NCBI GenBank assembly: GCA_039621445.1 | Contig: CP154954.1 | Location: 43,565,847 to 43,629,846, forward strand | Length of the DNA: 64,000 nt | From: Euglena gracilis | Taxonomy: Eukaryota | Reading direction: 5' to 3' | In this document: piece by piece, positions 9,145 to 46,465 of the stretch | Position numbering within the stretch: position 1 is the stretch's first letter | Layout of the letters: every line of letters begins with the position of its first letter | Program-made: the position numbers and the translations under genes | The notes under the pieces: model-generated | The model's input: the letters and a program-made list of their open reading frames with translations, nothing else | Told to the model about the DNA's origin: nothing | Databases searched by the model: none

Positions 9145-9225
9145 ATGCTGGACCTTTTCTGTGGTACCAAGTCGGTGGGCCAAGCATACAAAAAAATGGG
9201 GTTTCAGGTTGGTGACAGTGGACCT
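9145..9225 (+). pseudogene. Element B C5-cytosine methyltransferase, N-terminal part
   Basis: MLDLFCGTKSV (motif I), interrupted by element A. Confidence 0.85.
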
Positions 9226-14239: not shown

Positions 14240-14750
14240 GTGTCTGAAAACTACCACGTGAAGGAAGAAAAAATGACAGAAATTCTCTCACACTTCGGGG
14301 TCCAACCCCAGCTGGATGCCTTTGCAACCAAAAAAAACAAAAGATTCCCGCAATGGTGGGGATCGGACAGCCCAGATGGAACTGACGCCTTTGAAAAAAA
14401 CTGGCACGGAAAACTGCTGTGGATGAACCCCCCATTCAGCAAAATTTCACAGGTGGTGAAGAAAATCCAAACAGACGAGGCCCACGCACTTCTCATGGTA
14501 CCAAGATGGGTCCACAGAAAATGGTACAGGGAAATCAAAAAGCTGGCCGTGATATCAATGTTCATCCCAGCAGGAACAAAACTGTTTGGACAGGGTGACA
14601 AGAACTGCAGGAATACACCGTGGTCTGTGGAAGTGTTTTTGGTATGCGGACACAAAACACGGTGCAAGTACCTACCAGGTTTCCACAAACATTTCACCCC
14701 CCTACACCCGACATCCAAGGTGAGGTTCGGCACAGCCCATGAATACCCGC
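14240..14750 (+). CDS. Element A Dam-like N6-adenine DNA methyltransferase domain (pol frame, uninterrupted)
   Basis: QPQLDAFA...DAFEKNW..LLWMNPPFS...LLMVPRW. Confidence 0.88.
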
Positions 14751-14887
14751 CAGCGGAGGACGAGGTGGAGGGTGGTGAACAAAAAACCGACTTGGGGACG
14801 GAAAAACCACAGAAACACACCAGAAAACTGCAGGAGCCAGCCACAGCGACTCCAGAACGGGCCATTGCAGAAAAACCAAAACCACAA

Positions 14888-14969
14888 ATGCTGGACCTGT
14901 TCTGTGGAACAAAATCGGTCAGCAAGGTGTATGAAAAAATGGGTTTCCAGGCGGTGACGGTGGACTCAG
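14888..14969 (+). pseudogene. Element A C5-cytosine methyltransferase, N-terminal part
   Basis: MLDLFCGTKSV...VTVDS in frame with the Dam domain; cut by element C. Confidence 0.88.
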
Positions 14970-14971
14970 AG

Positions 14972-15395
14972 TGTACGTCCAAAGCTTTCCCTTTTCCCCT
15001 TTTTGGAACTTTCTGTAAAAGCCTTTCGCTTTCGCCTTGGTGCGCAGCCTACTTATGGTAGGGAAAAGTCTTTGGAGTAACGAAAAGTGGTTTTCCCCTT
15101 TTCTTCCCAATTCCCCAAGAAGCAAAGCACAAAGCAATGTCTCAGAAGTTTCTTCTGAGTTCAGTCTTGATTGTTCCAAGGGTTTTTCCCTCTGACAAAA
15201 CCAATGGTGAAACTTGGAATTGATGACAGTAAAGAATACCACCTGTGGGGGAAGGAGAGAAAAGTGCTGACGTGTCCAGGGGCAGATCCCAGAAGGGTCT
15301 GCCACGATCTTACCAGCTGTGGTTCCACAGTGGTGCGACCGTCACAGAACCCACTCTGCAGATATCCTACAGAGCTGGGACGTGCCTGGTACACA
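14972..15395 (-). repeat. 3' LTR of element C
   Basis: TG..CA; adjacent PPT GGGAGGGGGA (- strand, 15396-15405). Confidence 0.95.
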
Positions 15396-16796
15396 TCCCC
15401 CTCCCAGGGCTACGCCCGATTTCCTTCATGGACCAGGGTTTCCCAGTCCAGTCAGGATATCTGACGCTGCCCCAGGTGGGGTTCACTTCTCCATTCGGTG
15501 TCTCTCCTTTCCGCACAGTGGCATCCACCCAAAGCCCAAAAACGCGCAAAAGGTTAGCCGCGTTTCGCGGTTACCTATTAGCCGTTTCGGCTTAGGTGGG
15601 GTGTGAAAAAGCCCACTGTGGGAAACGGGGCTTGGCAGGTTTCCTGACAAAGTGTCCCATCCACCCACTTTGGGTGTGCCAAAGGCACGCGGGGTTGGTC
15701 AAGCGATTCGCTGAAAACCCGAGGGGAGAGGTGTGGAAGGGGGGCAGGCTCCTATCCTGGTCATACCCGGATAGGGCTCCTAGGCGGTCATATCCGCACT
15801 AGGAAACAAAAGCCTACTTACAAAACCGACTGCCGGCGACAGCTTTGCGGGGGTGGGGGGAAAGTAGAGAGGAGAGGGGGGCTGGCTTAGGCCAGAACAG
15901 AATTTTTGCTGTCTGGCAGCCTTAAGGGCCTTAGGGCCGAAAAGTGACAAGTTGGCCTATTATTACGGCGTGCGCGCTGTTTGCTGTGTGTCACTTAGCG
16001 GCTTGCCAGGTTTCCCGGCTGCCAAGGTATTCACAGCAGTAGCTCCTTCACGACGCAATAAGAGGCGATTACCTCTCGCAGACGGTTTCCGTCCGCATGG
16101 CCATTGGCAGAGGGGCAGGTGGCAGGGGGGGGGGGCTCTTGGATGCTTCCATCCAGAGCGTAGAGTGACACAGACCCAGGTTCATCCCAGGGCTGTTTAG
16201 CGATTTCCGCTACCATTGTATATATATATATAGGATATGGATGTCCAGGCTCCATGAAGGCACTTACCTTACATGAGCCTGGGAATGCCGTTTCGGCATT
16301 ACATCCGTTCCAGCCGCCAATAATCATGGCGGGAGTCCAAGGGATCTTCCACAAGGACCATCTGGAATTGTGGTGGTGGTGGCCTATCTACGAGCCAGGT
16401 TTCTGGCGATTCGTATTCGAAATCAGGTGCCACCCAGTCCCGAACCCATCCTTCGGGGACTGTGTGCTTGGTTGCACTCGCTCTTTCCGCGAGGAACCAT
16501 TGCAGCTTCTCCCAGAATTTCCTGGGTAGAGTGGCTGGCCAGATGAAGTAGTTCATCCTTGGGTGATTGGCTGACACCTGCGGGGCATTCCCCGGGTGGA
16601 AGTCAATCGGCATGTGATAGGCGCATTCCGCCCGGACTGTATGGGGTCGTAATACGGCCCCAAGCCAGTCTTTCCAGGTCATCCCGTGGCTTTCGGGTGG
16701 CCATTGTGGCAGGCACCAGCGACCGTTTCGGTCCTGGTTTTGGAACAGGCGGAAAAGTATCTTTTCCCTGTCTGCTGTTTCCCAGAGGTAAGGTAA

Positions 16797-19700
16797 TCAT
16801 ACCCCTGCCTCCTCAGCAGCGAGGCGTATCGCCCCACTGTCGATCTGCCACCCACGGGCCATTCCCGTGTGGCGGTAGTCGTCGAGCTTGAGGTTGGCAT
16901 ACTTGAAAAAGTCCTTGAACGTTTTGTTCAAGGTGGAGTATTCCTCCAGTGGCTTCTCGGCACTTGGCACGATTGTGCGTACTGCGCCTTCCGCAGTGTG
17001 CCAAAAGGTACCTCGAAGGCAGTTGACGCAGAGAACTGGTACATTCGTACCGTCTCGGTCTGTGTAGCTGAAATTGTGCTTGTGGGTCCAACTGTCCACG
17101 CACTTGGCGCATACCAAGGCGGCACAGTTAGGGATGTATACATCCTTGTGGAACGATTTCCGATCCACAGGGTTGCACACATGGACGAGGGGTAATCCCA
17201 GGTCAAGTGCCCTGTTGTACATCTTGTGGCATACAGTGCAAAGCCACACAAAACGGTTTTCCGTTGTTTTGTCGATGAGGAATTCCTCACCGAAGAATTG
17301 GGCCAAAACACGGGGAGATCTGGAATTGTAATAATTCCAGGTCACATTCTGATCAAAGGACCATTTCCGTCCCTGACAGAACAGTGGTTCAATCCACCGG
17401 TTAAGGCATTGCTGTGTCCTCAATTTATGTGTAATCATCATGTACCTGTTTTTCAGGTCATGAATGTCAGGGTCATCCTGATTGATCGCGTTCCAGTCGA
17501 TGACAACTTCGTCTTCTGAAGGTGTCTCGGCTGTCGAGGCGCGGGATTTTCCCTGCCCCTTTGTCGGAGGTTTCGGCTGTGAGGTTTTCCCATAGCCGGA
17601 TGACGTGACATGCGTGAATCCTTGTCCCGAGGTTAATCCCCGAGAAGAGGATGCAGCACTCTGGCCGCCAGCACCACCACCGCCTTTCGGTGGGGGCTGA
17701 TCACCAGATTTCGGTGTGGGTTTGCAAGGTGCGGCGCCCGGTTTACTTTTCGCCGGGGCCTTCGGGCTTCCGGTTTCCGGAGTCTCCGAGGGTCGCCGCT
17801 CGGCGTCTCGTTTGCTTGCCCACGTGCGTGGTGACGCTTGGGACGGGGGTCTTTTCCCCGACGCCGAACGTCGTTGACCTTCAGCAGGGGTTTCCCGAGC
17901 TGATGGTCGTCCTACACGCTCCTTCGCGGCTCCCGAAGGTTTCCCAGGGGTAGCCGTGGGGGATGGTGTTGGTGTAGGCCTAGCCTGTGCACTTCGCGCT
18001 GGCTGAGCCTGTGGTGGAGGCATGGACGCCCGCTCGGCCTGTTTTTCAGACGCCGGTGTCCATGTGCCTTGACGCTTCTCTGCCGTGACTGTGGCTGTAC
18101 CGTGAGATACGGGTTCATCCCGTGCCTCCGGTGGTACCGCCGGTGTCGATACAGGATCATCCTGTACTGACACGGCTGGTGTTGTCTCCACAGTCATTGC
18201 CGTCTGTACGCCTTCCGTCCGTGTCGCTTCCGACACTGGCGGTGGCGCTGCCGTTGGGGGAGGTTCATCCTCCACCATGGCTGCAGATGTGTCTTCCGTC
18301 AGCTGGGCAGTTTCCGCCGCAGCTGTGGAAGAACTGGCCGCAGTGCCACGTGGAGTGACTACTGCGATCAGTGACCGTAAACCACCGAGTACGCGTCCGC
18401 CTAGTGAGGTGCGTCTCTCCTCACCTGAAGTGGGCTCCTCGGCTGGCTCTTCTGTTGACGGGGCTTCCCCGGAAACAGGGAGCTTGAGGCGTAATACCTC
18501 AGGCGTGTGGGGTACCGTTTCCGGCGGGTTTTCCCGCGGAGGGGTTGGTACACCCGCTGTACCCAGTGAGGCTGGTGATAGAGGGACAGGTGTCATTTCA
18601 CCTGCTTGTGATCCTGGGTGTTGGGCGGTTTCTGCCACAGTATCCAGCATCACTACCGATGGGCTACGGGTTTCCCGTGCCGGAGGTTCCGTTGGCTGAG
18701 GTTCATCCTCAGCCATGGGGACCTCCTCCTCCTCCTCGTCCGCTTCCGGAGAGGATTCGGCTGCGTGTAGCTGTGCTGCAGAACGCGGGTCTTTCCCGCT
18801 CCTGTAGCACCCTTGTGCGTTTGACAGGCGGAAAAAGCTAATACTTTCACTCCTGTCAGAGTTCGGGTATGGGGGTGGCCACGTCGCTCTCACCCAGCTT
18901 TCGGGTGGAGGTTGTGGTTGATCATCGTCGATCAAGCAAAGGTCTTCCCACTGCCGTCGACAATGGTCAGTCACGCCAAACTCTCCTGTTTCTTCCAGGA
19001 ATGCTGGCAGTGGCAACGCGTAACGAGGGACTTCCCCTTCGTGCGCCGCGAAAAACATCTGAAAATCCTCCCATATCAGGATATTCCCGAATTGGGTATC
19101 CAGGTGTTCTTGGAGACCTATTTCGGCCTCTTCCCAGTCTGGTCGTAGGTTCATCCTGCGCTGGTCTGGGTCATTGGGTCTGGCGTTCACCTCCATATAT
19201 CCCCGCGGCAACCACTTTCTGTGGATTTCCACATCGGCGGTCATATATTCCAGGAAATATATGTAGACCTCTAGGACGTAGGTAATCCACGCCCTGTGCC
19301 AGTACTGCTGCAGCAGAAATATTTTCTGCCGGTGCTGTTTCAGCACCTTTCGGTCTTGCGTTCCAATCCGGGGATTCCGGCACTGATGCAGGAGGAATCT
19401 CCTGGTCGGCTGGCTGCCGGCATTCTCGGCAGACGGAGGCGGTTTTCCGCGTTCTCCGAAACCCCAGAAGTCAACGATGTGGACTTCCTTGCAAAACTGG
19501 CATTCCAGTTTGTACCGCTGGGGGTACGCGAGGTCCACGTCCAATACCTTGAACAGCATGCCATACATGCTGTCCAAGAAGACTTGGAGGTTGTTCGTGA
19601 ACATTACCGCAGCCGGTGCCTGGAGTTTCTCCGGCAGGGGGTAATACTTCCACTGGATTCCCAGTGCGCTGACTGAAAACATGTGGTTGAAGATTTCCTT

Positions 19701-20717
19701 CAACTGTGCAACGAACGTTTCGCCGTCTTCACAGGTATTCAGGCAATCGGTATACGTCAGACCGTTTCGGTCGGTAAAAATGCCGAAATTCTGGCAGGGG
19801 TATCCCAACCAGAACCACAATTCCCAGAAACCAGGCATCTGGTCCAGGACAACTTCATTCGAATGAGGGTATCCCTCGAACGCATGAAGTTCGGCACTGT
19901 AGAAAAAACGTTTGCAGTGATCGTTCATACGATTCTGCACCACTTCGAGCACCGCATCCGGTGGTCGGTGGATCACGTTGCCTGCCCTTGTGAACTTTAG
20001 GAGATCTTCGTCGATTTTCGGCCAGATCTCCTCCAGGTACTTGAACACTGAGGCAACGTCATAATCCTTCGTTTTCGAAGGTTCGGCGGCTTTCCCGCCC
20101 TTACCTGCTGGGGGTCCGGCAGATTTTCCGCCTTTGCCTGGAGCTGACCAGGCGGCTTTTCCACCTTTGCCAGGTGGGGCTTTCCCACCTTTCTCCTGGC
20201 CTTTTCCTTTCCCCTTACCTTTACCCTTTCCTTTACCCTTGCCCTTTGTGTTTGACAGCCATTCGAATGTCGCCCGGTATGGGTCAAAGTATTCCCAGTA
20301 TTCTGGGTCTTCTGGCGTAAACACTGGGTAAGTCACGGATTCCGTGCTTGGCGTCCGAGCAAATTCCTGCTCAGCATCACCACGATTCGAGTAAACCGGT
20401 GCGACTGGGGATGGTCGGGTTTCCCGACGTGCCCGTTCTGCCGTCACGTCTGGCGCTGGCGGAGCTTCCTCCTCAGCGTCGACATGCATCGCCGCGGGCG
20501 GATTTTCCGACCTCGGCGAGCGGCGCTGTGGCTGCGGCGTCAGATTTTCCGGGCCGCGGTCACGCTTGCCGGCGGCAGAACTTGTGGGCCGTGCTAGAGG
20601 CGCTTCCGCCACAGCAACGTCCTGCTGTCGCGCTGGTTGACTTGATCGTGATGGAGCTGGGACTCCTGTGAGAGCCGACACAGCAGCATCATACTGCTGG
20701 CGCTCTTCCCGTGTCAT
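16797..20717 (-). CDS. Element C accessory protein, 1306 aa, unknown function, Cys-rich (RING/PHD-like) C-terminus
   Basis: Long uninterrupted ORF with two globular-looking regions, a GKGKGK tract and CTVC..HVC..CAALVCAKC..CVNC. Confidence 0.8.
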   Translation of the reverse strand: MTREERQQYDAAVSALTGVPAPSRSSQPARQQDVAVAEAPLARPTSSAAGKRDRGPENLTPQPQRRSPRSENPPAAMHVDAEEEAPPAPDVTAERARRETRPSPVAPVYSNRGDAEQEFARTPSTESVTYPVFTPEDPEYWEYFDPYRATFEWLSNTKGKGKGKGKGKGKGKGQEKGGKAPPGKGGKAAWSAPGKGGKSAGPPAGKGGKAAEPSKTKDYDVASVFKYLEEIWPKIDEDLLKFTRAGNVIHRPPDAVLEVVQNRMNDHCKRFFYSAELHAFEGYPHSNEVVLDQMPGFWELWFWLGYPCQNFGIFTDRNGLTYTDCLNTCEDGETFVAQLKEIFNHMFSVSALGIQWKYYPLPEKLQAPAAVMFTNNLQVFLDSMYGMLFKVLDVDLAYPQRYKLECQFCKEVHIVDFWGFGERGKPPPSAENAGSQPTRRFLLHQCRNPRIGTQDRKVLKQHRQKIFLLQQYWHRAWITYVLEVYIYFLEYMTADVEIHRKWLPRGYMEVNARPNDPDQRRMNLRPDWEEAEIGLQEHLDTQFGNILIWEDFQMFFAAHEGEVPRYALPLPAFLEETGEFGVTDHCRRQWEDLCLIDDDQPQPPPESWVRATWPPPYPNSDRSESISFFRLSNAQGCYRSGKDPRSAAQLHAAESSPEADEEEEEVPMAEDEPQPTEPPARETRSPSVVMLDTVAETAQHPGSQAGEMTPVPLSPASLGTAGVPTPPRENPPETVPHTPEVLRLKLPVSGEAPSTEEPAEEPTSGEERRTSLGGRVLGGLRSLIAVVTPRGTAASSSTAAAETAQLTEDTSAAMVEDEPPPTAAPPPVSEATRTEGVQTAMTVETTPAVSVQDDPVSTPAVPPEARDEPVSHGTATVTAEKRQGTWTPASEKQAERASMPPPQAQPARSAQARPTPTPSPTATPGKPSGAAKERVGRPSARETPAEGQRRSASGKRPPSQASPRTWASKRDAERRPSETPETGSPKAPAKSKPGAAPCKPTPKSGDQPPPKGGGGAGGQSAASSSRGLTSGQGFTHVTSSGYGKTSQPKPPTKGQGKSRASTAETPSEDEVVIDWNAINQDDPDIHDLKNRYMMITHKLRTQQCLNRWIEPLFCQGRKWSFDQNVTWNYYNSRSPRVLAQFFGEEFLIDKTTENRFVWLCTVCHKMYNRALDLGLPLVHVCNPVDRKSFHKDVYIPNCAALVCAKCVDSWTHKHNFSYTDRDGTNVPVLCVNCLRGTFWHTAEGAVRTIVPSAEKPLEEYSTLNKTFKDFFKYANLKLDDYRHTGMARGWQIDSGAIRLAAEEAGV

Positions 20718-21736
20718 TTCCGCCCGGGCAGGGTATCCCTGGCCAGCGGAAACAGGGGGCGACGTGCGATTTGTCGTTGGATCGTCACAGCATATTCATA
20801 CTGTTGACGCTCCTCCTCAGTCTCGAACGGCCGACCAGTCCACGGGTTAACGGGTTCATCCCGTGCCGGGGGAACTGGTGCCGCACGAGGCGCTGCCGCG
20901 GCTTCCCGCGGACGAGCGCTTCGGGCAGAGTCAGACGCCGGGGGAGGATTTCCCTCCGCAGGACGTCGTGGGATAGGGTCAGGTATAGTTGGGTGGGGTT
21001 GAGGTGGATATACGTACTGATCCTGTGGCCTTGGCGCCTCCTGGGGATAATCCCCAGAGACGGCGTACTGAGACACATGCTCCTCTGCAGGATAATCCCG
21101 CCGGGGCACGCGCTCAGGGGATCTAAAAATGCTTTCTTTCACGCGTGGGTGTTCACTCCGGACAGGTGCTTCCACTGTCTCTTCCTCGGGTAATCCGGGG
21201 GAGTGAGCACGAAAATGTGCAGTGTAAGTGCCAACTGGTGGTACCTGCCGTGCGACCTGTGGCGGGACTTCCACGCCCAGGTCACGCATGGTAATGTCTG
21301 CCGCGAATCCCGACGCGTCCGGGTCGGTGTAATACACCAGACCGGTCATCGTCGCCTGGGCGCACATACACCACAGGGCTGGAGGGGTATTCGCGATGGT
21401 CAAAACTTTACGGCAGTGGTCATCCCACAATGCCTGTGTGAGTTGGTCTGGTGCCGGGTTTGCGCTCATACGCATAACCCGGTTCATCGTCTCCGCCGTG
21501 CGGTGGATCATCACACCCGCATACGGTGGGAGGCGACGAGAGCCTGATGGCTGAGATGGCCGCGCTTCCGCGGGCATCTGGGTCATCCTGCTACTGCTGC
21601 TGGCTTCAGGGTTTCCCTGAGCCGCAGTCCGTGCAGGTGGCTGCGTACCGTATCGGTACGCATACTGGTCAGGTTGAGGGTGAGTGGTGGGGTGGTAAGG
21701 CGGTCCTCCGCCTGGCTCCCTTCCGCCGGGCAGCAT
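20714..21736 (-). CDS. Element C accessory ORF, 340 aa, Pro-rich; possibly a frameshifted N-terminus of the 1306-aa ORF
   Basis: ATG-initiated ORF downstream of pol; ATGA overlap with the next ORF; both share an EERQQY motif. Confidence 0.65.
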   Translation of the reverse strand: MLPGGREPGGGPPYHPTTHPQPDQYAYRYGTQPPARTAAQGNPEASSSSRMTQMPAEARPSQPSGSRRLPPYAGVMIHRTAETMNRVMRMSANPAPDQLTQALWDDHCRKVLTIANTPPALWCMCAQATMTGLVYYTDPDASGFAADITMRDLGVEVPPQVARQVPPVGTYTAHFRAHSPGLPEEETVEAPVRSEHPRVKESIFRSPERVPRRDYPAEEHVSQYAVSGDYPQEAPRPQDQYVYPPQPHPTIPDPIPRRPAEGNPPPASDSARSARPREAAAAPRAAPVPPARDEPVNPWTGRPFETEEERQQYEYAVTIQRQIARRPLFPLARDTLPGRK

Positions 21737-21898
21737 ATTACCGCCCGGGGACGGTACGGTAGGATGTTGGGGTTGTTGGTTGTAAGGTGTGTGAGGGTAA
21801 CCGCTTGAGTATTATTTGCTAAAAAGTCTGCGGAAAGAAAGAATGATAAGAATCAATGATAAAAAGAAGAGAAAACAACATGGGTTTCCCATGCGTTC

Positions 21899-24800: not shown

Positions 24801-25195
24801 GCCTGGGATGTCCACTCGCTTTTCGAGGGTACTATCCACTTGCGCTGAATAAGCTTCTCAATCATTTCATTGAGAGCTTGTTCGCGTTCTCCCGAACAAC
24901 GAAAAAATTTCCGGTGCATTGGTTTGGCTCCATCCTTAAGCTCGATCTTACAAACACCGAACGGACCGCGTATCGCGGGGTCGATGTCGCACGCGTATAC
25001 TGGATTTTCCAGCACACCGTGGAATTCGCGGGTAATCCGCGAACAGAATTCGGCTGACTTAGGATGCTGACCTGCACTCTCGATGACTGCGGAAACCGCC
25101 AGGGTATCCCTGGGGCTACCGAGCTTCCTCGGCACCGCGAATTCGGACATTCCGAATGCATCGAAGAAACATACACGAAAAATGATTTCTTGCAA
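21899..25195 (-). CDS. pol: Element C pol: RT, RNase H, integrase, chromodomain
   Basis: WRLVLDYR, LPMGVKNGP, YIDD; LEVDSS, TDH, ADPLSR; HHCC finger, MDF..SDQD..GNGRAE, LWLGPC; VDKIIDH..VRWKGY..DTWEP. This stretch is uninterrupted. Confidence 0.97.
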   Translation of the reverse strand: MQEIIFRVCFFDAFGMSEFAVPRKLGSPRDTLAVSAVIESAGQHPKSAEFCSRITREFHGVLENPVYACDIDPAIRGPFGVCKIELKDGAKPMHRKFFRCSGEREQALNEMIEKLIQRKWIVPSKSEWTSQAFVVPKPPDPSGQKKWRLVLDYRYLNSQTRDDPFPLPLIEDLITKQSENRLWSIFDLEDGFHQMHLHPDSQPYTAFVTSKGVYQWTVLPMGVKNGPAMFQRMIQWVLRDLPFAIVYIDDVLVGTPPPSAKSSEDILVTHFHHVCAVLAAFQKHVLFAKGAKMHLFRNLIKFCGHILSNGQRKAAPSKLEAIKKWTPEVIKTITHLKGFLGLAQYYAIYMKDFAKIAVPLTKQLKNRAVDNTKVIWDDQMREALEKIKVLLLENVVLEIADPYKPYVLEVDSSDYAVGGVLSQHNAANELRPVAFFSRKLQGDDGKGQVKWSIREKETYAIVLILQKFRSWVASSLVQILVKTDHESLQHWYTEDLNKAMSSVGRRCRWHEFLSQFNLVVIYTPGHTQKVADPLSRAPWYYPGNPDEGDATFHGSQEADEYARRNDAADNLLDSFPVSQLFLVAPVRGRRRRGSTSGPRRITRTESPSPLFFREWDYSRDPVYDTIVTRLRNGEVLDNYTLSPLRLVFRNESGYKYCIPQDLVDDVILCYHNHGHPGAPKLLSLVGRRYCTTLSEKELYSRCLRIAQRCQICQAVKPRRGTPPGTMDFFPVPPDIFTSLCMDFLELEPCKGTDDKIYDYVFVVVCRLSGYIVAIPCQKSGLTAQSLAAIFLEKCICLMGLPNEIVSDQDHLISSRFFTTLCGLLGIEQHFSIIYRPKGNGRAEAAVKSVVNMLRLSLADSRSNWISVLPWSLFYINTLPGLVLPHSPYKLVFGRDPPAIGDVPSERPARTSVSCETWFAEVENLRSAVQKRVTDIHAAKRKSFLQNFKSPVYSPGDRVWVRNSRTRMQSSKLDPLWLGPCEILERLGTSGRYKVALPNGVEDVHMDDFKPYLSPPDGKPIPCLHFKPRSRLPETDDFVVDKIIDHKIDKGMHLWKVRWKGYGPEEDTWEPATSFVGYVQQDWKLWNKKHNIDVSMTSF

Positions 25196-25278
25196 GGGTG
25201 GTAATATTTTACCACAAACTCCTCAAAAATCGGTACATTAGTGGGTAAATCCCACCAATGAAAACATACATACGATAG

Positions 25279-26952: not shown

Positions 26953-26997
26953 CTGTTCATCAGCCCAGAGGTCCGTGCCCTCGGACCTCGGGCTCCC

Positions 26998-29900: not shown

Positions 29901-30651
29901 GATGCAAAATCCGTTGTTGGGCTTCTTGGAAAGAAGTGGTAAGTGCGGCAAAATGCTCAACCGCGACAAAGTTACCGATTTCCGGCATTTTGGGGGTGGC
30001 ATTTTGCGCTTGTAACTGCTGCTGCAATTGCAGTAGCATGGTTGAACAAGATTCCACTTTGGCAAAAAGATGGCTCATACCATCTTGCACGTGCAGAAAC
30101 TTGGAATCATTCCGCGTTTCCGCTTCATGCAGCATTTCGCTGATTTGTTGGAAATTTTGTGGAAGTTGGATGCGCAAAATACTGTCAACACTTTCTCGAA
30201 AATGCTGAAGGTCTTTCCCCGCATTTTCAAAATTGTGTTGGCAATATTTGCCGATTTCCTGCAAATAATTCCAGCAACATTCCAGTTTGGTGTTGACAAC
30301 CCTTTGATTGTCCTCATCGAACTGCAAAACTTTGTTGAGCATGGTTGCGCATTCCGCAACGCATTGGTGGACATGCAAAATTTGCTTGCTAAGCGGGTGA
30401 TCCGCTGGGAGTTGACCGAGAATTCGGTAAACATCACCGGGGGTGAGGTTATCCCTCAAATCTTCCTCATAGTCCTCCACAATGGAAACGGCACCAGAGA
30501 TTTCCGGTACCACCAGACGCATATCTGGGTTCCATGGCAATGCAGGGAAAACCGCAGCTTCCGCGGGTAATCCCGGCAATGCGCGAAGTGGTGTGGGGGG
30601 TGGTAATTGAGGGGGGGTTGGAAAAAACACGGTGTTTCCACCGAGTTGCAC
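26998..30651 (-). CDS. gag: Element C gag, 1217 aa, coiled-coil N-half, two CCHC zinc knuckles
   Basis: CFLCNKSGHMSREC and CSLCGSKDHHASKC; WDGDP..W..F capsid-like motif; lies upstream of protease. Confidence 0.9.
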   Translation of the reverse strand: MQLGGNTVFFPTPPQLPPPTPLRALPGLPAEAAVFPALPWNPDMRLVVPEISGAVSIVEDYEEDLRDNLTPGDVYRILGQLPADHPLSKQILHVHQCVAECATMLNKVLQFDEDNQRVVNTKLECCWNYLQEIGKYCQHNFENAGKDLQHFRESVDSILRIQLPQNFQQISEMLHEAETRNDSKFLHVQDGMSHLFAKVESCSTMLLQLQQQLQAQNATPKMPEIGNFVAVEHFAALTTSFQEAQQRILHLGSEIEHLKQFQMKVQENFVPRTQIQLLEERISHLEQKSCHCAANQDGLTTLNAKIADCAQRLDFTQQQMQTDIGGINATVVGLQEHVSALSKRIPDISGIQAAIGELQTRCTLLSTTVTEIRSLPPISRARISESPEFRSFYDKVLGDNKETLQAFCTSLLQIEESVNRNARSMQDEVSRLDGRISALLEKPTAENSRTTVETPTKSLHQLQTVSNAVKALAGQLRNVEESQGNLAQELHLVSEKLPHLEDFSRYRKRIRHLETEVDRICGQLQLVEHLEETVHDLSASLDKMSTPVPVVPPSTAVSAAVGIPNVPESRSQITISGVGIPTSTANLVQPPAKTRIVPPLHLPTPQTHSSHDISDEEIDPPLENSSLHQEIQHSNLVRGMSQHPTPGIGHVSHSRSYQPPTGSGLPNHPSGFRRETRPTGRISPNFSQIPQENPANLTLGAGNPARVTHGAENPRNAFGVKNYPDPNPWNTTEGQRVTQRDFKGTIAIANKVKPQWDGDPTTWRQFFRDWEYYWALKGPTQDPNPEVVKMEFIDCLPREERERARNLVIRNGVSFDDLVEQYASTNSSLVTRITLEKKWRQSAPSDRKWKSIDLWYAKWLALASEVDELSEKQMREQFDAVLLHFTPSLVKDIHREELAGHEMTLAQRWNYVSKQLKLTQVLGQIQSAFQTHPTAGIPAGAVNALQKSPMSPRSPTTGPKTRNQRSSDQGTDKLCFLCNKSGHMSRECPNPDARKRIGSPRGSTSSRGSGSSAFSRQSGVSRSSENRFSGSRPKSPSRDGRETRPSRGRSPGPPARKRDFNRDSSRSRSRSGSSSSRESTGKTRYTGHGRRETRSPRRFDGRTEYRSPRYAESRHKSRCSLCGSKDHHASKCPRSRSPRPGYGNRGKRRDDRGYSSNRQKVGFKISCLEEDTPASGREGDETSDGEFNEARMAVRSLNSIYSTKKSVAGYAAGSDLE

Positions 30652-31373
30652 TCCAAAAGGCCCACCGGTGCTTCCACCGGGGATCTTTTGGGTGTGAACA
30701 GAGCAAAGGGCAAATACCCCTCACTTTGTTCATGGGTAACATGAGTAACCAAGTGTGAGGGTGCAAGGGGTTCATCCCCTCGCCGCATCAATGATGGGTG
30801 AATCGGGATGGAGGAAGGCATTTTGCCACCTACATCCCGCACAATCAATGACAATGATGATGAAGAGGGTTCATTACCCCCATGCAACAATAAAGGCGTT
30901 TCGCCTTTTGACAATGACAAATGAGTCAAATTGCCTTCTTCTTGCTTGGGGGGTCGGGAATTGGAACTTGTTTCATTCAAACCGTTCCAATCCCCGCAAT
31001 CTTCATCACAATTGCTCAATGAACTCATCAACAAGTCATAATCAAATTTGGGGTTGGGGCTTGTGCTCTGCATCTTTTGAGATGGGTAAAAAGGCAAAAA
31101 CCCAAAAATTCACACAAATAAGCAGAGAAACAGGGACCAGAAAGGTTGTATCGGCGATTACCGAACAGAGCCTTCTGAGACCTGTATCCTTGCTTAAAGG
31201 TTGGCTAGGGGCCAGGAACAGTACTTTCACCGTGTTTCACGGCTCAGTACGATCCTCACCACCAGTCAACCGCAGAGTTTCTCTGTGTGGAACGTCTGTG
31301 TGGGATCGTTGCCTAAATCTGCTACCAAGTGTATTACCTGGTAGCCTTTCTTTCTGTAGGATCTTTGACCTAT

Positions 31374-31383
31374 TCTGCTACCA
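31374..31383 (-). promoter_or_regulatory. Primer binding site of C (initiator tRNA-Met type)
   Basis: TGGTAGCAGA, 2 nt after the 5' LTR on the - strand. Confidence 0.85.
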
Positions 31384-31385
31384 AG

Positions 31386-31809
31386 TGTACGTCCAAAGCT
31401 TTCCCTTTTCCCCTTTTTGGAACTTTCTGTAAAAGCCTTTCGCTTTCGCCTTGGTGCGCAGCCTACTTATGGTAGGGAAAAGTCTTTGGAGTAACGAAAA
31501 GTGGTTTTCCCCTTTTCTTCCCAATTCCCCAAGAAGCAAAGCACAAAGCAATGTCTCAGAAGTTTCTTCTGAGTTCAGTCTTGATTGTTCCGAGGGTTTT
31601 TCCCTCTGACAAAACCAATGGTGAAACTTGGAATTGATGACAGTAAAGAATACCACCTGTGGGGGAAGGAGAGAAAAGTGCTGACGTGTCCAGGGGCAGA
31701 TCCCAGAATGGTCTGCCACGATCTTACCAGCTGTGGTTCCACAGTGGTGCGACCGTCACAGAACCCACTCTGCAGATATCCTACAGAGCTGGGACGTGCC
31801 TGGTACACA
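31386..31809 (-). repeat. 5' LTR of element C
   Basis: Near-identical to 14972-15395. Confidence 0.95.
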
Positions 31810-32330
31810 CTCAGACCCCAGGTGGAAAGCGGATTACCAGGTGGACGTACTGGACTGGGACTTCAGAAAACATTTCAAACCTGGCGAATTCCACACGGTG
31901 GTTTGTGGAGTTCCCTGCACAGAATTCAGCATTGCCCTGACGACAAGACCCAGAAACCTGGAAAAGGGAGACAGCCTTGCAAAGAAAGCCCTGGAAATTG
32001 TGGAATTTCTGCAGCCGCAGAAATGGTGGTTGGAAAACCCAAGGTACGGATACCTGGGAAAACGAGATTACATGAAACCGTACCCGTACATTGACGTGGG
32101 TTACTGTCAATACACAGACTGGGGCTACAAAAAACCAACACGAATCTGGGGGAGCCCTGACATCCTGCAGGTACCAGCAAAACGGTGTGACGGAAAAACC
32201 TGCAAAAACCTGGACCCGAACGGTGGTGGTCACCTGGTGAAACTCAGCAACAAACACAACAGTCCAGCCTTCAAAAAATTCAGGATCCCAGAACAACTGA
32301 TTCAGGACCTGGCGGGGTGCCACGAACGGC
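31810..32330 (+). pseudogene. Element A C5-cytosine methyltransferase, catalytic part
   Basis: CGVPCTEFS (motif IV, catalytic PC), WWLENP (motif VI), YKKPTRIW; in frame with the downstream protease and RT. Confidence 0.88.
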
Positions 32331-32489
32331 TACGGCAAACCAGCCAAGCCCAGGCCGTGCAGCAACAACCGCTGCAGCAGCCCAGCCCTGCCCAGACTGC
32401 ACGACAAAACATGCTCTCACAGCCCAGCCCAGAACTGACAGGTCAACAGCCAAACCCAGATTCAACTGACAAAACAGAACCAGACCAAA

Positions 32490-35400
32490 ACATTCGGCTT
32501 CCAAAACGACTGTGTGAACCGGTGGCCAAACTCCTGCTGGGGCAGGTCATCAGCAGAAAGAAAGCAAAACAACTCCTCATCGAAGTCCGTGCTGTGTTGC
32601 CGGATAGCAAAAAAATGTTCCTACAGGCCCTGATTGACCCGGAAGCACAGGCAAACCTGGTGAAAAAGAACCTGATTCCCCAACAAAACTTCAGACGTTC
32701 ACAAAAACCCTTGGCCCTGATCACAGCAGACGGAACAAGGATGGAAGGAGGACTACACGAAGTCACACTGGAACTGCAGTTTTCATCACGGGTGCACAAC
32801 ACGGACAGAACAAGGGAATGGTCCACCATTGGAACGTTCCATGACGCCGACATCCAAGTGGATGCCATCCTCGGGTCTCCGTGGATGGAACAACACCAAC
32901 TGGGGGTTTTCCCACACCTACAATCATTGGCCCTCATAGGTGAACCACTGCGGCTGCTGTCCAGTTGGCACCAGCTGAAGGAACAAAAGCACAGGGAACG
33001 GAAAATACACCAACTTCAGAAAAAGATTTCGGCAGTGCGGGCAATTAATTTGCAGATTCCTGCTGAAGCGGGCCAGGACGAGGAAAAACTGTTTGAAGAC
33101 GAAACAACACTGGAAACACTGGCAAAACAACTTCAGAAATCGGCAAAGAAATCTGACAGGGTTCACGGTGTTGTGGTGGTGCCAGAAGGACAGGAAACAC
33201 AAGGCGAAAGGGTGGCTGAACTGGTGAAAAAACTGCGGCAGGACTGTGAAGGAGTGGTCTTGCGAGACAAAATTTACCCAGACCCCCCAGAACGCGGACC
33301 ACTGGGTTATGGGAAAATCGAACTGAAACCTGGAACAGTGGCGAAAAAGCAAAGACCCATCCACATGACAGGAGAACGCCGACAGGCACTCATCGACATG
33401 GTGGACGAATGGGTTAGGGACCTGAAAGTGGAAGACGGGAGGAGTGACTGGTCCAGCCCCACGTTCGTGGTGGCCAAAAAGGGTGGAAAATGGAGAGGGG
33501 TGGTGGATTTCAGAGCACTGAACGAGGCAACAATCACAGACGCCCATCCCCTCCCTAGGATAGAAGACATCCTATTTCAACAAGGACAACGGGCCCTGTA
33601 CTGGACCTCAAAGACGCCTTCCACCAGGTGCCACTGAGAACAGAGTCCAGACCCTACACCTGCTGCAGCACACCTAAGGGAACAAAACAGTGGAGAGTGG
33701 TGGTCATGGGGATGAAAAACGGTGTACCGATTTTCCAGAGGGTGATCGAGTACAGCCTGGAGGAGGTACAGGATATTGCAAATCCCTACGTGGACGACAT
33801 AATCGTAGGAACCGTATGGCAGGGGTCAGAAGAAAAAACCCTCGAACAACACGACAAGGACATCAGAAGGGTGATGGAGGCACTGAAAAAACAGCAGCAC
33901 GTGGCAGACATTAAGAAATGCAAATTTTTCGTGAAATAGGTGGAATTCTGTCGACACGTGCTGGGTGGTGGACAACGAAAACCAGCACCAGGCAAACTGA
34001 TGGCCTTGGAAAAATGGGAGGAACCCAAAACGGTCACAGCCCTGCGGGCATTCCTGGGATTCACAAACTACTACGCCTCATACATCCCAGGGTACGCAGA
34101 ATTGGCAGCAGACCTAATGGAGAAACTGAAGGTGAAAAAGGGACAGGGGAAGAAAGGACGCCTGACACCTGTGTTTTTCGGTGAAACGGAACGAACAGCT
34201 TTTCAGACTATCAAAGAAAAACTGCTGGGAAGCCTGAAACTGCAAACGGTGAACCCAGACAAACCGTTCATACTCAGGGTGGATGCAAGTGGCAGAGCCG
34301 TGGGTGCGGCTCTGGAACAATTTGCGGAGGACACTGCAGAAAAACCAGACCCAACAACAGCCATGACCGAAAACACAGTACCCGTAGCTTTCTGTTCACC
34401 AAAACTGACACCTGGGCAGGTTCGCTCGTGGTCTCCTAGGGAGAAGGAGACCTACGCAGTGATCCTGGCCATGCAAAAATGGGCTTCCTGGATAGGAAGG
34501 CAACCGGTTCTGGTGTTGACGGACCACAAGTCCATTGAGGCGTGGGCAACGGAGGCGCTGGACACCCCCAGTGGACCACCTGGACGTAGGGCTAGGTGGC
34601 ACGAACTGCTTTTGCGGTTCGACATAACTGTTGCATACGTACCTGGCAAAGACAACACGGTCGCCGATGCCTTGAGTAGGTGGGCCTACCCCGCCTCACA
34701 GGCATTCGCCGACGTGAGTATCCACGGGAGTGAGGAGGACGACCGACTCATGAAAGAAATCATCAAACAGGAGGAAAAGGAACAGAAAACTTGTATGGTG
34801 ATCAACGTGGCAGACCTGACACAGGCACAAAAACAACTTCAAGAACCCGTCACTGTGGCCGTCACAACAAGGGGGGGAGCCAAAACGGGTGAAGATTCGC
34901 CCACAGTGCCTGGTTCAACGGAAAACGGTGACACCCCTCAAAAAAATTCAAAGCCACCTCAAAAACCTGCAAAAACGACAAAGAAATGGGTTGTGAAGGA
35001 AACAACTGTGGTGAAACCAAGCAAAAAACTGGCAGGGGCAACCCCAAGGGAGACCACGGAGGCAGGAAACCTGGGCTCCGCCGGAAACCTGATCCGACCA
35101 GACCAACCAAAAAACAAAACCCCAGAAAATTAAAACACGGCCGAGGGACCATCCACTGAGGAAGACCCACCAAGGCGAAGACCCCTGGAAGAGGACCCTG
35201 TGGAACCCCTAACAACAACAGACACAACAAAACAACAGGACGCGCAAGGTGCGTCATCCTCAACGGGGACACCCGTTGGACCTCCATCAAGGGGAGTGCA
35301 CGCCCCGGAGCTTCAACAGGGGGAACCGAAAGGGGTGATGGACAGGGAATGGAAGAACGAGTACGAAAGTTGCCCAAGGTGGGGACCTGTGCTCAAGGAC

Positions 35401-36816
35401 CTGAAGGGAACGGGGTTCAAAAACTGGCCTGACAGGTACCGATTCGACAACGGCAGGCTCTACAAAAACGGACTCCTGTGTGTACCAAGTGGGTTGACTG
35501 GAAACGTAATTCGGGAACATCACGAAACAGCCGGGCACCCAGGGTCAGCCCGACTGTGGGACCAGATGGGAAGGTGGTTTGCATTTGCGGACCACCAGGA
35601 TGCAAAAAAACTGACAGGCAAAATGATGACCATGTGTGAAACCTGCCAAGCAACAGAACCCAGCCACTTACCATACAAGTGCCCCATTCAACCGACACCG
35701 ATTCCTGCACACCTGATGGACAGTGTTGCTATCGACTTGTTCTCTCTACCTGAAACCACCTTTGAAGGGAAAAAATACGACACGTTGGCGTTGTGTGTAG
35801 ACAGGCTGAGTGGGTGGATGGTTGCAACCCCCCACCTGGCCAAGGGACTCACAGCAGAAAGGGTTGGAAAGGAAATGTACAAACAGTGGGGAATTTTTGG
35901 GATACCCTCGGTGGTGAGCTCCGACCGGGGCTCCCACTTCACAGCCGGTTGGTGGAAAACACTGTGTGCTGCCCACGGGGTCCGTGTGGCGTACAGGCAG
36001 GCATACCACCACCAAGCCAACGGACGGGCTGAGGTAGCGGGTCAACAAGTCCTCCGAAAACTGGCAAAACTGGCTGCTGAAAAAGGGGTACCCTGGGTTG
36101 AACTCCTACCGAACGCCTTGAGGGCCCTACACGACGTCCCAGGTGAAACGGGATTGTCACCGTACGAAATTGTGTTTGGCAGGCACTGACCGTTGGCAGG
36201 ATTGCCATACCAACCACAAAAGGAAGCGGAAGGGGCCACAACGTTCATGGAAAGGATGAAAGAACAAGACCAGTGGGTGAGCCTGGTCCTGAACGAAAAA
36301 CAGCGTGAACGAGCTGAAACGGTGAACCAAAAACACAGAGAACCACCTGCCTTGGAAATCGGTTCCAAAGTCTGGTATCAACCCGAAAGACAACCCGGTA
36401 CCGACAAACTCGAACCGAAGTGGAAAGGACCTGCGGTGGCGTTGGAACGGGTTGGACAACACTCCTACGTGGTTGAACTACGACCTGGAAACCGACAACC
36501 TGCCCACCGTTCACAACTCAAACCCCACGTGGAGGACCTCTACAACGCAACCCCTGTTCCCCTCTACTTTTGGTCGGGCAAGGCACAGGAGTTGGAGGTC
36601 GGACCTGACGAATGGGAGGTTGACAAAGTGCTGAACCACCGCAGAAAAGACGGAAAACTTCAATTTTTGATTCAGTGGAAAAACTGGGACCCGTCTGACA
36701 CTCAGTGGGAACCCCTGAACCACTTCTTCCTCCGAACGAACAAGGATGTGGTCCAATATTGCAAGAAACGGGACCTGGCTGTGGATGTGAGAGAGTTTCT
36801 CGATGGGATGGAGTGA
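32490..36816 (+). pseudogene. pol: Element A pol: protease, RT, RNase H, integrase, chromodomain
   Basis: LIDPEA (degenerate protease site), WRGVVDFR, YVDD, VDAS, TDH, SDRG, WKGP, EWEVDKVL..QWEP. Frameshift near 33600; stops at 33937 and 36187. Confidence 0.93.
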
Positions 36817-39545: not shown

Positions 39546-39547
39546 GG

Positions 39548-46447: not shown

Positions 46448-46449
46448 AA

Positions 46450-46461: not shown

Positions 46462-46465
46462 GTTT

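What the first reader, a model, noticed from the sequence alone, without database searches (positions are those of the whole stretch)
14240..36816. Gypsy retrotransposons encoding both a 6mA and a 5mC DNA methyltransferase in Pol, plus a chromodomain
Seen: removing element C from A gives one open frame reading Dam-like (DAF..NPPF) - C5-MTase (LDLFCG, GVPCTEFS, WLENP) - protease - RT, with RH, IN and chromodomain downstream. The diverged relative B has the same order with protein motifs conserved despite many synonymous-looking changes. Established: Dam-like domains occur in DIRS elements, and C5-MTases have been reported in dinoflagellate and charophyte retrotransposons. I do not know of an LTR element carrying both. 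Inference: both enzymes would be packaged with Gag-Pol and could doubly methylate new cDNA or the target site, for self-marking, silencing control or defence evasion.
Basis: partly seen in the sequence, partly recalled or inferred. Interest (0 to 1): 0.95.

Follow-up and report, generated by a model that had tools for sequence, protein, structure and literature searches.

The report
Gypsy retrotransposons carrying two DNA methyltransferases

Summary
Element C (14970-31809, minus strand, LTRs 99.5% identical, 5-bp duplication CTCAG) sits inside element A. Without it, A reads in one frame: Dam-like (LDAF, NPPF), C5-MTase (LDLFCG, PCTEFS, ENP), protease, RT. RNase H, integrase and a chromodomain follow.

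A public metagenome protein, P0158, runs uninterrupted across the junction. It is 91% and 98% identical to A's two halves and passes both Pfam cut-offs. Contigs from four sequencing runs also bridge the junction. Uninterrupted 1788-1896-aa Pol proteins with the same domain order exist in environmental assemblies.

An AlphaFold model of the C5 domain matches DNMT3/DNMT1/M.HhaI. The Dam-like model matches N6-adenine methyltransferases, with the RNA enzyme PCIF1 the closest. A versus B gives pN well below pS in every domain.

The window copies themselves are dead. The claim that no such element is known is out of date. A May 2026 preprint names LTR elements with DAM, DNMT and a chromodomain "EpiLTRs". 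Activity and substrate remain untested.

New here:
- The C5 module is a compact family of about 195 aa that also occurs in giant-virus-like contigs.
- Gag and Pol are separated by a conserved in-frame stop.
- A sits in B within 1-2 bp of the homologous site where C sits in A.

The parts
6747..9225 (+). Element B, 5' part: gag (with a CCHC knuckle), in-frame stop, Dam-like domain, C5-MTase motif I. It ends at the insertion of A. Decayed by frameshifts.
   Evidence: tblastn with A's ORFs, 53-60% identity; translations; flank alignment
9226..9701 (+). Element A, 5' LTR (TG...CA), followed by a primer-binding site starting TGG at 9702
   Evidence: 96.6% identical to 38573-39045 over 476 bp; ends read
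9895..14005 (+). Element A gag-like ORFs (9895-11013 and 11867-14005), ending in the stop TGA at 14003-14005, in frame with Pol
   Evidence: ORF list; no Pfam family above cut-off; stop context
14279..14575 (+). Element A Dam-like N6-adenine methyltransferase domain (LDAF 14312, NPPF 14420)
   Evidence: PF05869 32.5 bits against cut-off 28.1; AlphaFold pLDDT 81.2; Foldseek top hit PCIF1, E 9.4e-6
14888..14969 (+). Element A C5-MTase, N-terminal piece (motif I MLDLFCGTKS ... VTVDS); the last 5 bases, CTCAG, are the target-site duplication
   Evidence: continuous with the next piece in P0158
14970..31809 (-). Element C, a 16.8-kb chromovirus nested in A. It has LTRs 14970-15395 and 31384-31809, gag with CCHC (26998-30720), a Dam-like domain with HPPP in place of NPPF (about 25282-25620), RT-RH-IN-chromo (21899-25222), then two ORFs with no family (20714-21811 and 16797-20795). 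It has no C5-MTase.
31810..32315 (+). Element A C5-MTase, C-terminal piece (second CTCAG copy, then DPRW..., PCTEFS 31907, ENP 32024, KPTRIWG 32132, FRIPEQL 32279)
   Evidence: 98% identical to P0158; family model matches DNMT3B/DNMT1/M.HhaI
32316..33937 (+). Element A linker, protease (motif DPE at 32630-32650, not DTG) and RT (YVDD at 33787), with a frameshift near 33600 and a stop at 33937
33940..36816 (+). Element A RNase H, integrase (H2C2, rve, SH3) and chromodomain (about 36613-36717); in-frame stops at 35131 and 36187
   Evidence: Pfam; stops
38573..39045 (+). Element A 3' LTR, preceded by a polypurine tract (AGGAAGGGGAG); the 4-bp duplication ACCT lies at 9222-9225 and 39046-39049
39046..43820 (+). 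Element B, 3' part: rest of the C5-MTase, protease (DTR), RT, RNase H, integrase, chromodomain; 69-78% protein identity to A

Best explanation
The region is a three-deep nest of Ty3/Gypsy chromoviruses: B holds A, and A holds C. A and B belong to a family whose Pol polyprotein starts, right after an in-frame gag stop codon, with two S-adenosylmethionine methyltransferase domains. The first is a Dam-like N6-adenine enzyme with an NPPF motif. The second is a compact C5-cytosine enzyme of about 200 aa with the catalytic Cys (PC motif), the Glu of ENP and an Arg (KPTR). Protease, RT, RNase H, integrase and a chromodomain follow. This is the 'EpiLTR' type of element named in a 2026 preprint.

Shown here: the architecture, its presence in uninterrupted form elsewhere, purifying selection on both domains, and the two folds.

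Inferred: Gag-Pol is made by read-through of the gag stop, so both domains enter the particle as the N-terminus of Pol. There they would act on the element's own nucleic acid (cDNA, RNA:DNA hybrid or RNA) or on DNA near the integration site. The chromodomain would steer integration into marked chromatin.

The three copies in the window are dead. They carry insertions, frameshifts, stops and altered protease motifs. C is a Dam-only relative.
For: Nest structure and duplications.

Domains in A.

Uninterrupted sibling P0158 passes both Pfam cut-offs and is 91% and 98% identical to A's two halves.

Uninterrupted Pols with the same order, Dam then C5 then RT-RH-IN-chromo, both methyltransferase models above cut-off:
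- P0164, 1896 aa: Dam 33.5 bits, C5 26.4 bits.
- P0162, 1788 aa: Dam 31.5 bits, C5 23.2 bits.

Contigs that skip exactly the 16845 bases of C: X1 1 contig, X2 3 contigs, X15 1 contig of 875 nt, X20 1 contig of 754 nt.

The C5 family is large: 1649 cluster representatives at E<=1e-3, 748 at <=1e-10, 103 at <=1e-30.

In a 30-sequence alignment the catalytic Cys and the ENP Glu are invariant. A profile of that alignment hits DNMT1 in the PDB at E 6.8e-6. The AlphaFold model of P0002 (pLDDT 84.3, pTM 0.76) matches DNMT3B, DNMT3A, DNMT1, DIM2 and M.HhaI at E about 1e-8, with 244 matches at E<=0.001.

The model of A's own Dam-like domain (pLDDT 81.2) matches N6-adenine methyltransferases.

A versus B, pN/pS: Dam 0.29/0.67, C5 0.16/0.65, PR-RT 0.17/0.69, RNase H 0.13/0.66, integrase 0.14/0.61.

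An in-frame stop lies at the gag-pol border in A, B and C.

Published description of the type: preprint sections 7 and 8.
Against: - A's own C5 piece alone scores only 17.3 bits (cut-off 22), and Pfam matches only profile positions 2-112 of 324 in every relative. The C-terminal half is therefore not a canonical target-recognition domain.
- Single-sequence searches of the PDB with A's pieces found nothing meaningful.
- dS between A and B is saturated (pS 0.6-0.77), so the ratios are rough, and the codon alignments were taken from tblastn hits.
- No activity is shown. The preprint found no 6mA gain from eukaryotic DAMs in E. coli. In de Mendoza 2018 only the DIRS-Dnmt3 enzymes methylated DNA in yeast.
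- Of the 8 solved structures matching the Dam-like model at E<=0.001, all act on RNA: 6 PCIF1 entries and 2 KsgA entries.
- A carries Gly at a nearly invariant Asp (DVGYCQY).
- The RNA-library contigs may come from carried-over DNA.
Confidence: 0.8

Rival explanations
1. The architecture is as described, but one or both domains do not methylate double-stranded DNA. The Dam-like domain would be an RNA or RNA:DNA-hybrid N6-adenine methyltransferase, for example acting on the element's capped genomic RNA as PCIF1 does. The compact C5 domain might act on RNA or single-stranded cDNA.
For: - All 8 Foldseek matches at E<=0.001 for A's Dam-like model are RNA enzymes: PCIF1/CAPAM at E 9.4e-6 and TM 0.50, then KsgA. 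ZCCHC4, DIMT1 and RlmJ follow, and no bacterial DNA Dam is listed.
- The preprint reports no 6mA gain in dam- E. coli and itself raises a DNA-RNA hybrid substrate.
- De Mendoza 2018 raises RNA methylation for SymbioLINE-Dnmt.
- The C5 domain lacks a canonical target-recognition domain; Pfam covers only positions 2-112 of 324.
Against: - The Pfam family PF05869 is annotated as DNA Dam of bacteria and phages.
- The PDB may simply hold no structure of that family, so the nearest solved fold says little about substrate.
- The C5 model matches DNA enzymes (DNMT3, DNMT1, M.HhaI) ahead of RNA m5C enzymes.
- The preprint finds DAM-LTRs enriched for 6mA in three species.
Confidence: 0.3
2. The two domains are conserved relics with a structural or nucleic-acid-binding role in Pol, such as tethering, and have no catalysis.
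For: Heterologous assays were negative or inconclusive. C's Dam-like domain reads HPPP instead of NPPF, yet C is the youngest element, with LTRs 99.5% identical.
Against: The catalytic Cys and Glu are invariant, and NPP, the motif I residues and the KPTR Arg are invariant or nearly so, across 30-33 diverged sequences. That pattern is hard to explain without catalysis or at least cofactor binding.
Confidence: 0.1
3. The Dam-C5-Pol arrangement is a chimera produced by nested insertions or misassembly, and the two methyltransferases belong to different elements or to a host gene.
For: The window is heavily nested. The preprint warns of nested insertions and assembly artefacts in Euglena DAM-LTRs.
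Against: The same order is found in A and in B at about 70% identity, in P0158, P0005, P0162 and P0164 from independent assemblies, and in bridging contigs of four runs. There is no LTR, duplication or frame break between Dam, C5 and the protease.
Confidence: 0.02

Closest known systems
EpiLTRs (Fernandez-Moreno et al., bioRxiv 10.64898/2026.05.21.726589, May 2026; I read the outline, abstract and sections 6-10, plus passages of the introduction, discussion and methods; figures and supplements not seen)
   Same: An LTR retrotransposon with DAM (PF05869), DNMT (PF00145) and a chromodomain in one element. It is interpreted as an epigenetic toolkit.
   Different: In Cymbomonas the DNMT is appended to the 3' end of pol. 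Here it follows Dam directly at the 5' end of Pol, upstream of the protease. The Euglena layout is only called 'structurally distinct' in the text I could read, so it may or may not be this one. The host of this window is not identified. The preprint does not mention the compact size of the DNMT, viral stand-alone relatives, a gag stop, or same-site nesting.
DAM-LTR chromovirus-like elements (same preprint)
   Same: Element C is of this kind: Dam-like domain, RT-RH-IN and chromodomain, without a DNMT.
   Different: C's catalytic tetrapeptide reads HPPP. C also carries about 1700 aa of unassigned ORFs downstream of the chromodomain.
DIRS1-like retrotransposons with a Dam-like methyltransferase domain
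   Same: They carry a Dam-like domain. The preprint infers that DAM-LTR domains were captured from DIRS elements.
   Different: DIRS elements use a tyrosine recombinase and have split or inverted repeats. A, B and C have a DDE integrase (rve), direct LTRs and 4-5-bp duplications.
DNMT-bearing retrotransposons of Symbiodinium and Klebsormidium (de Mendoza et al. 2018, PMC5890265; passages read)
   Same: A C5-MTase lies inside retrotransposon coding regions, with Ka/Ks below 0.2 and saturated Ks. Self-methylation of cDNA was proposed.
   Different: Those are DNMT3-type or orphan DNMTs in DIRS, LINE or Gypsy elements, without a Dam-like domain. One Symbiodinium natans protein (P0170) is 52% identical over 53% of P0002; I did not test how it relates to those families.
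Stand-alone compact C5-MTases in virus-like contigs
   Same: L027 is a contig labelled as a giant-virus MAG. It encodes a complete 195-aa protein that matches PF00145 at 35.2 bits and the query at 35% identity.
   Different: It is a free-standing gene next to a D12-class N6-adenine DNA methyltransferase and a primase-helicase. It is not part of a Pol.
PCIF1/CAPAM cap-specific adenosine N6-methyltransferase
   Same: It is the closest solved fold to A's Dam-like domain (E 9.4e-6, TM 0.50, 16% identity). That PCIF1 shares the NPPF motif is my recollection, not a result of any call.
   Different: It is an RNA enzyme with extra domains, and there is no detectable sequence family link (one search found no PDB sequence match).

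Membership tests
Ty3/Gypsy chromovirus | Direct LTRs with a target-site duplication, and a PBS and PPT next to the LTRs | tested here: met
   A: LTRs 96.6% identical, ACCT duplication, TGG... PBS, purine tract. C: LTRs 99.5% identical, CTCAG duplication.
Ty3/Gypsy chromovirus | Pol order PR-RT-RH-IN with a chromodomain at the C-terminus of the integrase | tested here: met
   Pfam on A and C. RT YVDD in A. Chromo 40.0 and 39.7 bits against cut-off 25.1.
EpiLTR (2026 preprint) | DAM domain (PF05869) inside the element | tested here: met
   A 32.5 bits, P0158 31.9, P0164 33.5, P0162 31.5, all above 28.1.
EpiLTR (2026 preprint) | DNMT domain (PF00145) inside the same element | tested here: met
   A's split piece alone scores 17.3 bits (below 22). 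Uninterrupted sibling P0158 scores 22.6, P0164 26.4 and P0162 23.2. The fold matches DNMT3, DNMT1 and M.HhaI.
EpiLTR (2026 preprint) | Chromodomain in the same element | tested here: met
EpiLTR (2026 preprint) | DNMT belongs to the clade sister to DNMT4 that unites the Euglena and Cymbomonas EpiLTR DNMTs | not tested
   No reference DNMT set or EpiLTR sequences were available. The supplements are closed and the figures are not held.
C5 DNA cytosine methyltransferase (PF00145) | Motifs I (FxGxG), IV (PC), VI (ENV) and VIII (Arg), and the Rossmann-type catalytic fold | tested here: met
   LDLFsGtGS, PPCTEYS, ENP and KPTR are conserved; Cys and Glu are invariant in 30 of 30 sequences. DNMT1 profile hit at E 6.8e-6. 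Foldseek E 1.6e-8.
C5 DNA cytosine methyltransferase (PF00145) | Canonical target-recognition domain and motifs IX-X (the C-terminal two thirds of the profile) | tested here: not met
   Pfam aligns only profile positions 2-112 of 324 in all relatives. The remainder is a segment of about 90 aa with conserved Cys, Cys, Cys, His and YRIP.
C5 DNA cytosine methyltransferase (PF00145) | Methylation of cytosine C5 in DNA | not testable with these tools
   Needs a biochemical or in vivo assay.
Dam (PF05869) DNA N6-adenine methyltransferase | (D/N)PP(Y/F) catalytic motif and a match to the family profile | tested here: met
   NPPF in A and B. NPP is invariant or nearly so in 33 sequences. C has HPPP and scores only 18.5 bits.
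Dam (PF05869) DNA N6-adenine methyltransferase | DNA as substrate | not testable with these tools
   The nearest solved folds are RNA N6-adenine enzymes. The preprint's E. coli assay was negative.
DIRS retrotransposon | Tyrosine recombinase in place of a DDE integrase | tested here: not met
   rve, H2C2 and SH3 integrase domains are present and no phage-integrase hit was found.

The most novel reading that the evidence does not exclude
These chromoviruses home into one short site inside the cytosine-methyltransferase gene of their relatives. A entered B, and later the different, Dam-only element C entered A. Both insertions lie within 1-2 bp of the same homologous position. The empty sites are GTGG[ACCT]GGACCCC in B and GTGGA[CTCAG]ACCCC in A, both 11-bp imperfect palindromes between C5 motifs I and IV. 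If this is targeting rather than chance, it would be site-specific element-in-element integration that knocks out the resident's 5mC enzyme. That would be a form of competition between retrotransposons, or a safe-harbour strategy. It could be mediated by the incoming element's own DNA-binding methyltransferase or integrase.
Probability: 0.2. Interest if true: 0.75.

Novelty: new member of a known kind. Interest (0 to 1): 0.55.

Why it matters
Retrotransposons that carry both a 6mA-type and a 5mC-type methyltransferase plus a histone-mark reader could write, and not merely suffer, the host's epigenetic marks. The type has only just been reported, in two species.

This window and its relatives add four points:
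- The type is widespread in environmental assemblies, with uninterrupted Pol genes.
- The two enzymes sit at the very start of Pol, behind a conserved gag stop.
- The cytosine enzyme is an unusually small family of about 195 aa, shared with virus-like contigs.
- The adenine enzyme's substrate is open, DNA or RNA.

These points give concrete constructs and hypotheses for the activity assays that have so far been negative or inconclusive.

Tried and rejected
- Whole genome of the window: none is held.
- One Pfam call failed because a B stretch contained stops. I mapped B by tblastn in a script instead.
- Single-sequence PDB searches with A's C5 piece and its Dam piece gave 3 chance-level hits (E>=0.67) and 0 hits. 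Profile and fold searches were needed.
- Host identification failed:
  - no Rfam family and no tRNA in the window;
  - flanking ORFs gave only a CCCH zinc-finger exon;
  - the best protein relative of C's Pol is 87% identical and comes from an unnamed metagenome;
  - the only named relatives of the C5 domain are a partial 'Genlisea aurea' protein and a Symbiodinium natans protein at 52% identity;
  - run names are coded.
- Test of the same-site insertion idea outside the window:
  - the 8-sequence alignment gave 25 loci from 88 candidate stretches, the closest only 55% identical;
  - of the 16 loci I read upstream, 14 have motif I contiguous, 1 is decayed (L003) and 1 is cut by the contig end (L015), so there is no informative interrupted copy;
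  - among the 25 fragment proteins whose N-termini I printed, 13 begin within 9 residues of the site, but several of those keep 2-3 native residues upstream of it, so this is better explained by gene-caller start choice and is inconclusive;
  - a third homologue search with A's Dam-motif I piece returned 1 protein.
- ESM Atlas on C's 1332-aa ORF: no usable hit.
- Rothnie et al. 1991 on Physarum Tp1 self-nesting: I saw only its entry in a reference list, and the paper is not held.
- CpG observed/expected is 0.52-0.60 in A, B and the flanks but 0.90 in young C. This fits age and host CG methylation as well as self-methylation, so I did not use it as evidence for activity.

Full report
**Anatomy**

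The window is eukaryote-like, with GC 0.45-0.62 and no tRNA or Rfam match. It is filled with nested LTR retrotransposons.

Self-BLAST gives two LTR pairs:
- 14970-15395 and 31384-31809, 99.5% identical over 426 bp. This is element C.
- 9226-9701 and 38573-39045, 96.6% identical over 476 bp. This is element A.

C is flanked by CTCAG at 14965-14969 and 31810-31814. A is flanked by ACCT at 9222-9225 and 39046-49. A has TG...CA ends, a TGG... primer-binding site at 9702 and a purine tract before the 3' LTR. Without C, A is 12,975 bp long.

A lies inside an older relative, B. B consists of 6747-9225 and 39046-43820. It is 69-77% identical to A in DNA and 53-78% in protein. A 10-kb segment, 40571-50473, is repeated at 50647-60447 with about 98% identity.

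**The observation**

The frame ending ...MLDLFCGTKSVSKVYEKMGFQAVTVDS at 14968 and the frame starting DPRWKADYQVDVLDWDF...GVPCTEFS...WWLENP at 31815 are in phase.

Independent evidence for the uninterrupted form:
- P0158, a 544-aa metagenome protein, reads across exactly this junction. Its residues 1-243 are 91% identical to 14240-14968. Its residues 243-438 are 98% identical to 31811-32400.
- P0158 passes both curated Pfam cut-offs: Dam 31.9 against 28.1, and DNA_methylase 22.6 against 22.
- Contigs that skip exactly the 16,845 bases of C occur in all four runs laid. X1 has 1 contig and X2 has 3. X15 has one 875-nt contig, with 123 nt on one side and 752 on the other. X20, a leaf-litter metatranscriptome, has one 754-nt contig, with 527 and 227 nt.

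X15 is only guessed to be RNA, and DNA carry-over in X20 cannot be excluded, so expression is suggested and not shown.

On A's own ORFs Pfam gives:
- Dam 32.5 bits;
- DNA_methylase 17.3 bits (below cut-off, on the C-terminal piece alone);
- RT_RNaseH 71.6 bits;
- rve 28.0 bits and H2C2 25.4 bits (both just under cut-off);
- Chromo 40.0 bits.

**Is the C5-like domain a cytosine methyltransferase?**

A's C-terminal piece finds 1649 cluster representatives at E<=1e-3, 748 at <=1e-10 and 103 at <=1e-30.

I scanned 10 long hits with Pfam. Eight list PF00145 at E<=0.01 and three are above the cut-off (P0093, P0073, P0094). The match always covers profile positions of roughly 2-112 of 324.

A 30-sequence alignment shows LDLFsGtGS, PPCTEYS, ENP, DYCQF, KPTR, a Cys-Cys-His cluster and YRIP. 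The catalytic Cys and the Glu are invariant. The profile of that alignment hits DNMT1 structures at E 6.8e-6.

The AlphaFold model of P0002 (66% identical to A; pLDDT 84.3, pTM 0.76) matches DNMT3B, DNMT3A, DNMT1, DIM2 and M.HhaI at E about 1e-8 and probability 1.0.

So this is a C5-MTase catalytic fold with all catalytic motifs. Its C-terminal part is short and non-canonical.

The family also exists as free-standing genes:
- In at least 9 of the 16 metagenome loci I read, an in-frame stop and a Met directly precede motif I.
- L027, a contig labelled as a giant-virus MAG, encodes a complete 195-aa protein scoring 35.2 bits on PF00145. It lies next to a D12-class adenine methyltransferase and a primase-helicase.

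**The Dam-like domain**

A and B have LDAF/VDAF and NPPF. In 33 aligned sequences D, F and NPP are invariant or nearly so.

The model of A's own domain (pLDDT 81.2, pTM 0.71) has 8 PDB matches at E<=0.001. Six are entries of the cap-specific adenosine N6-methyltransferase PCIF1/CAPAM (best E 9.4e-6, TM 0.50) and two are KsgA. ZCCHC4, DIMT1 and RlmJ follow.

The fold is therefore that of an N6-adenine methyltransferase. The substrate is not settled.

**Same architecture elsewhere**

P0164 (1896 aa) and P0162 (1788 aa) are uninterrupted and read Dam, C5, RT, RNase H, integrase, chromodomain. Both methyltransferase models are above cut-off in each. P0005 reads Dam-C5-protease.

Other orders also exist. 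P0094 reads Dam-PR-C5 and P0168 reads C5-Dam.

Among the 120 listed relatives of C's Pol, 26 carry PF05869 and 4 carry both PF05869 and PF00145.

**Selection**

Nei-Gojobori values for A versus B, as pN/pS:

| Domain | pN | pS |
|---|---|---|
| Dam | 0.29 | 0.67 |
| C5 | 0.16 | 0.65 |
| PR-RT | 0.17 | 0.69 |
| RNase H | 0.13 | 0.66 |
| Integrase | 0.14 | 0.61 |
| Chromodomain region | 0.20 | 0.77 |

Synonymous sites are saturated and the alignments come from tblastn, so only the conclusion that pN is far below pS is safe. Both methyltransferase domains are conserved about as well as the core enzymes.

**State of the copies in the window**

- A carries the C insertion, a frameshift near 33600, and stops at 33937, 35131 and 36187. 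Its protease motif is DPE. It has Gly at a nearly invariant Asp.
- B carries the A insertion, several frameshifts and a DTR protease motif.
- C is young but has a break between its Dam ORF and its RT ORF. Part of the contigs differ there in length by one base.
- C has no C5 domain, and its Dam motif reads HPPP.

**Expression strategy (inferred)**

In A, B and C the gag ORF ends in a stop that is in frame with Pol. In A and B the stop is followed by a similar peptide (GDERGDSL). In C a GC-rich inverted repeat follows it. Read-through translation would place Dam and C5 at the N-terminus of Gag-Pol, upstream of the protease.

**Comparison with the literature**

A full-text search found the preprint by Fernandez-Moreno et al. 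(22 May 2026). I read its outline, abstract and sections 6-10, and passages elsewhere. I could not see its figures or supplements.
- It defines DAM-LTRs and 'EpiLTRs'. These are LTR elements with DAM, DNMT and a chromodomain, in Cymbomonas (DNMT at the 3' end of pol) and in Euglena ('structurally distinct').
- Their DNMTs are placed sister to DNMT4.
- It states that the combination was not described before.
- It reports that eukaryotic DAMs gave no 6mA in dam- E. coli.

A search for 'EpiLTR', 'DAM-LTR', 'Gypsy-DNMT3' and 'SymbioLINE' found 11 papers with at least one term. Only this preprint holds the first two terms.

In de Mendoza et al. 2018 I read passages only. It describes DNMTs in Symbiodinium and Klebsormidium retrotransposons, Ka/Ks below 0.2, and de novo CG methylation by the DIRS-Dnmt3 enzymes only.

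Whether this window's family is the Euglena one cannot be told. The host is unidentified. The best named relative of the C5 domain is 52% identical. Fourteen DNA-type runs from 11 studies, all under one coded organism label, hold 59-66% of the sampled words, and one of them may be the source of the window.

**Unexplained: same-site nesting**

Flank alignments put the two empty sites in register, GTGG[ACCT]GGACCCC in B and GTGGA[CTCAG]ACCCC in A. A entered B, and C later entered A, within 1-2 bp of the same homologous position, between C5 motifs I and IV. C's Pol is only 26-42% identical to A's over the aligned pieces, so the two events involved different integrases.

If insertions were uniform over a 12,975-bp element, a second hit within 2 bp would have a chance of about 4e-4. 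This is my arithmetic, not a tool result.

I could not test this beyond the window. It is my most novel reading, at a probability of about 0.2.

**Verdict**

This is a real and well-supported feature, and a new member of a very recently described kind. The activity, substrate and role of the two enzymes remain open.

Noticed in passing
9222-9225/39046-39049 and 14965-14969/31810-31814: A is inserted in B, and C in A, within 1-2 bp of the same homologous position of the C5-MTase gene. The empty sites are GTGG[ACCT]GGACCCC and GTGGA[CTCAG]ACCCC, both 11-bp imperfect palindromes. Two different elements hitting one site is unlikely by chance.
   Followed up: partly
14003-14005 (A), about 8290 (B), 26998-27000 minus strand (C): In all three elements gag ends in a stop that is in frame with Pol. 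A and B share the peptide GDERGDSL just after it, and C has a GC-rich inverted repeat after its TAG. This suggests Gag-Pol is made by stop-codon read-through.
   Followed up: partly
16797-21811, minus strand (element C): Two large ORFs (365 and 1332 aa) lie downstream of C's chromodomain and inside its LTRs. They have no Pfam family and no ESM Atlas hit. This is an unusual extra coding load of about 1700 aa for a chromovirus.
   Followed up: partly
about 25282-25620, minus strand (element C): C's Dam-like domain reads WMHPPP where A and B have WMNPPF/WVNPPF, although C is the youngest element (LTRs 99.5% identical). The Pfam score is only 18.5 bits.
   Followed up: partly
40571-50473 and 50647-60447: A segment of about 10 kb is repeated in tandem at about 98% identity. 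It covers B from mid-RT to its 3' end plus about 5 kb of downstream sequence. The repeat boundary falls inside B's RT.
   Followed up: no
L027:962-1549 with neighbours 1756-2493 and 2854-5028: On a contig labelled as a giant-virus MAG, a complete 195-aa C5-MTase of the same compact family lies next to a D12-class N6-adenine DNA methyltransferase and a primase-helicase. On L026 the homologue lies near a TET-associated glycosyltransferase.
   Followed up: partly
whole window; A 9226-14969 and 31815-39045; C 14970-31809: CpG observed/expected is 0.52-0.60 in A, B and the flanks, with a TpG excess up to 1.62 in A. It is 0.90 in young C. This fits CG methylation and deamination acting over time in this genome.
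   Followed up: partly
62358-63422, minus strand: There is a tristetraprolin-like CCCH zinc-finger exon (PF00642, 34.5 bits). It is the only host-gene-like feature found in the window.
   Followed up: no
2326-2682 and 5080-5437: A pair of 357-bp direct repeats, 96% identical and 2.75 kb apart, lies upstream of B. It is possibly a small LTR element or a local duplication. B's own LTRs were not found.
   Followed up: no
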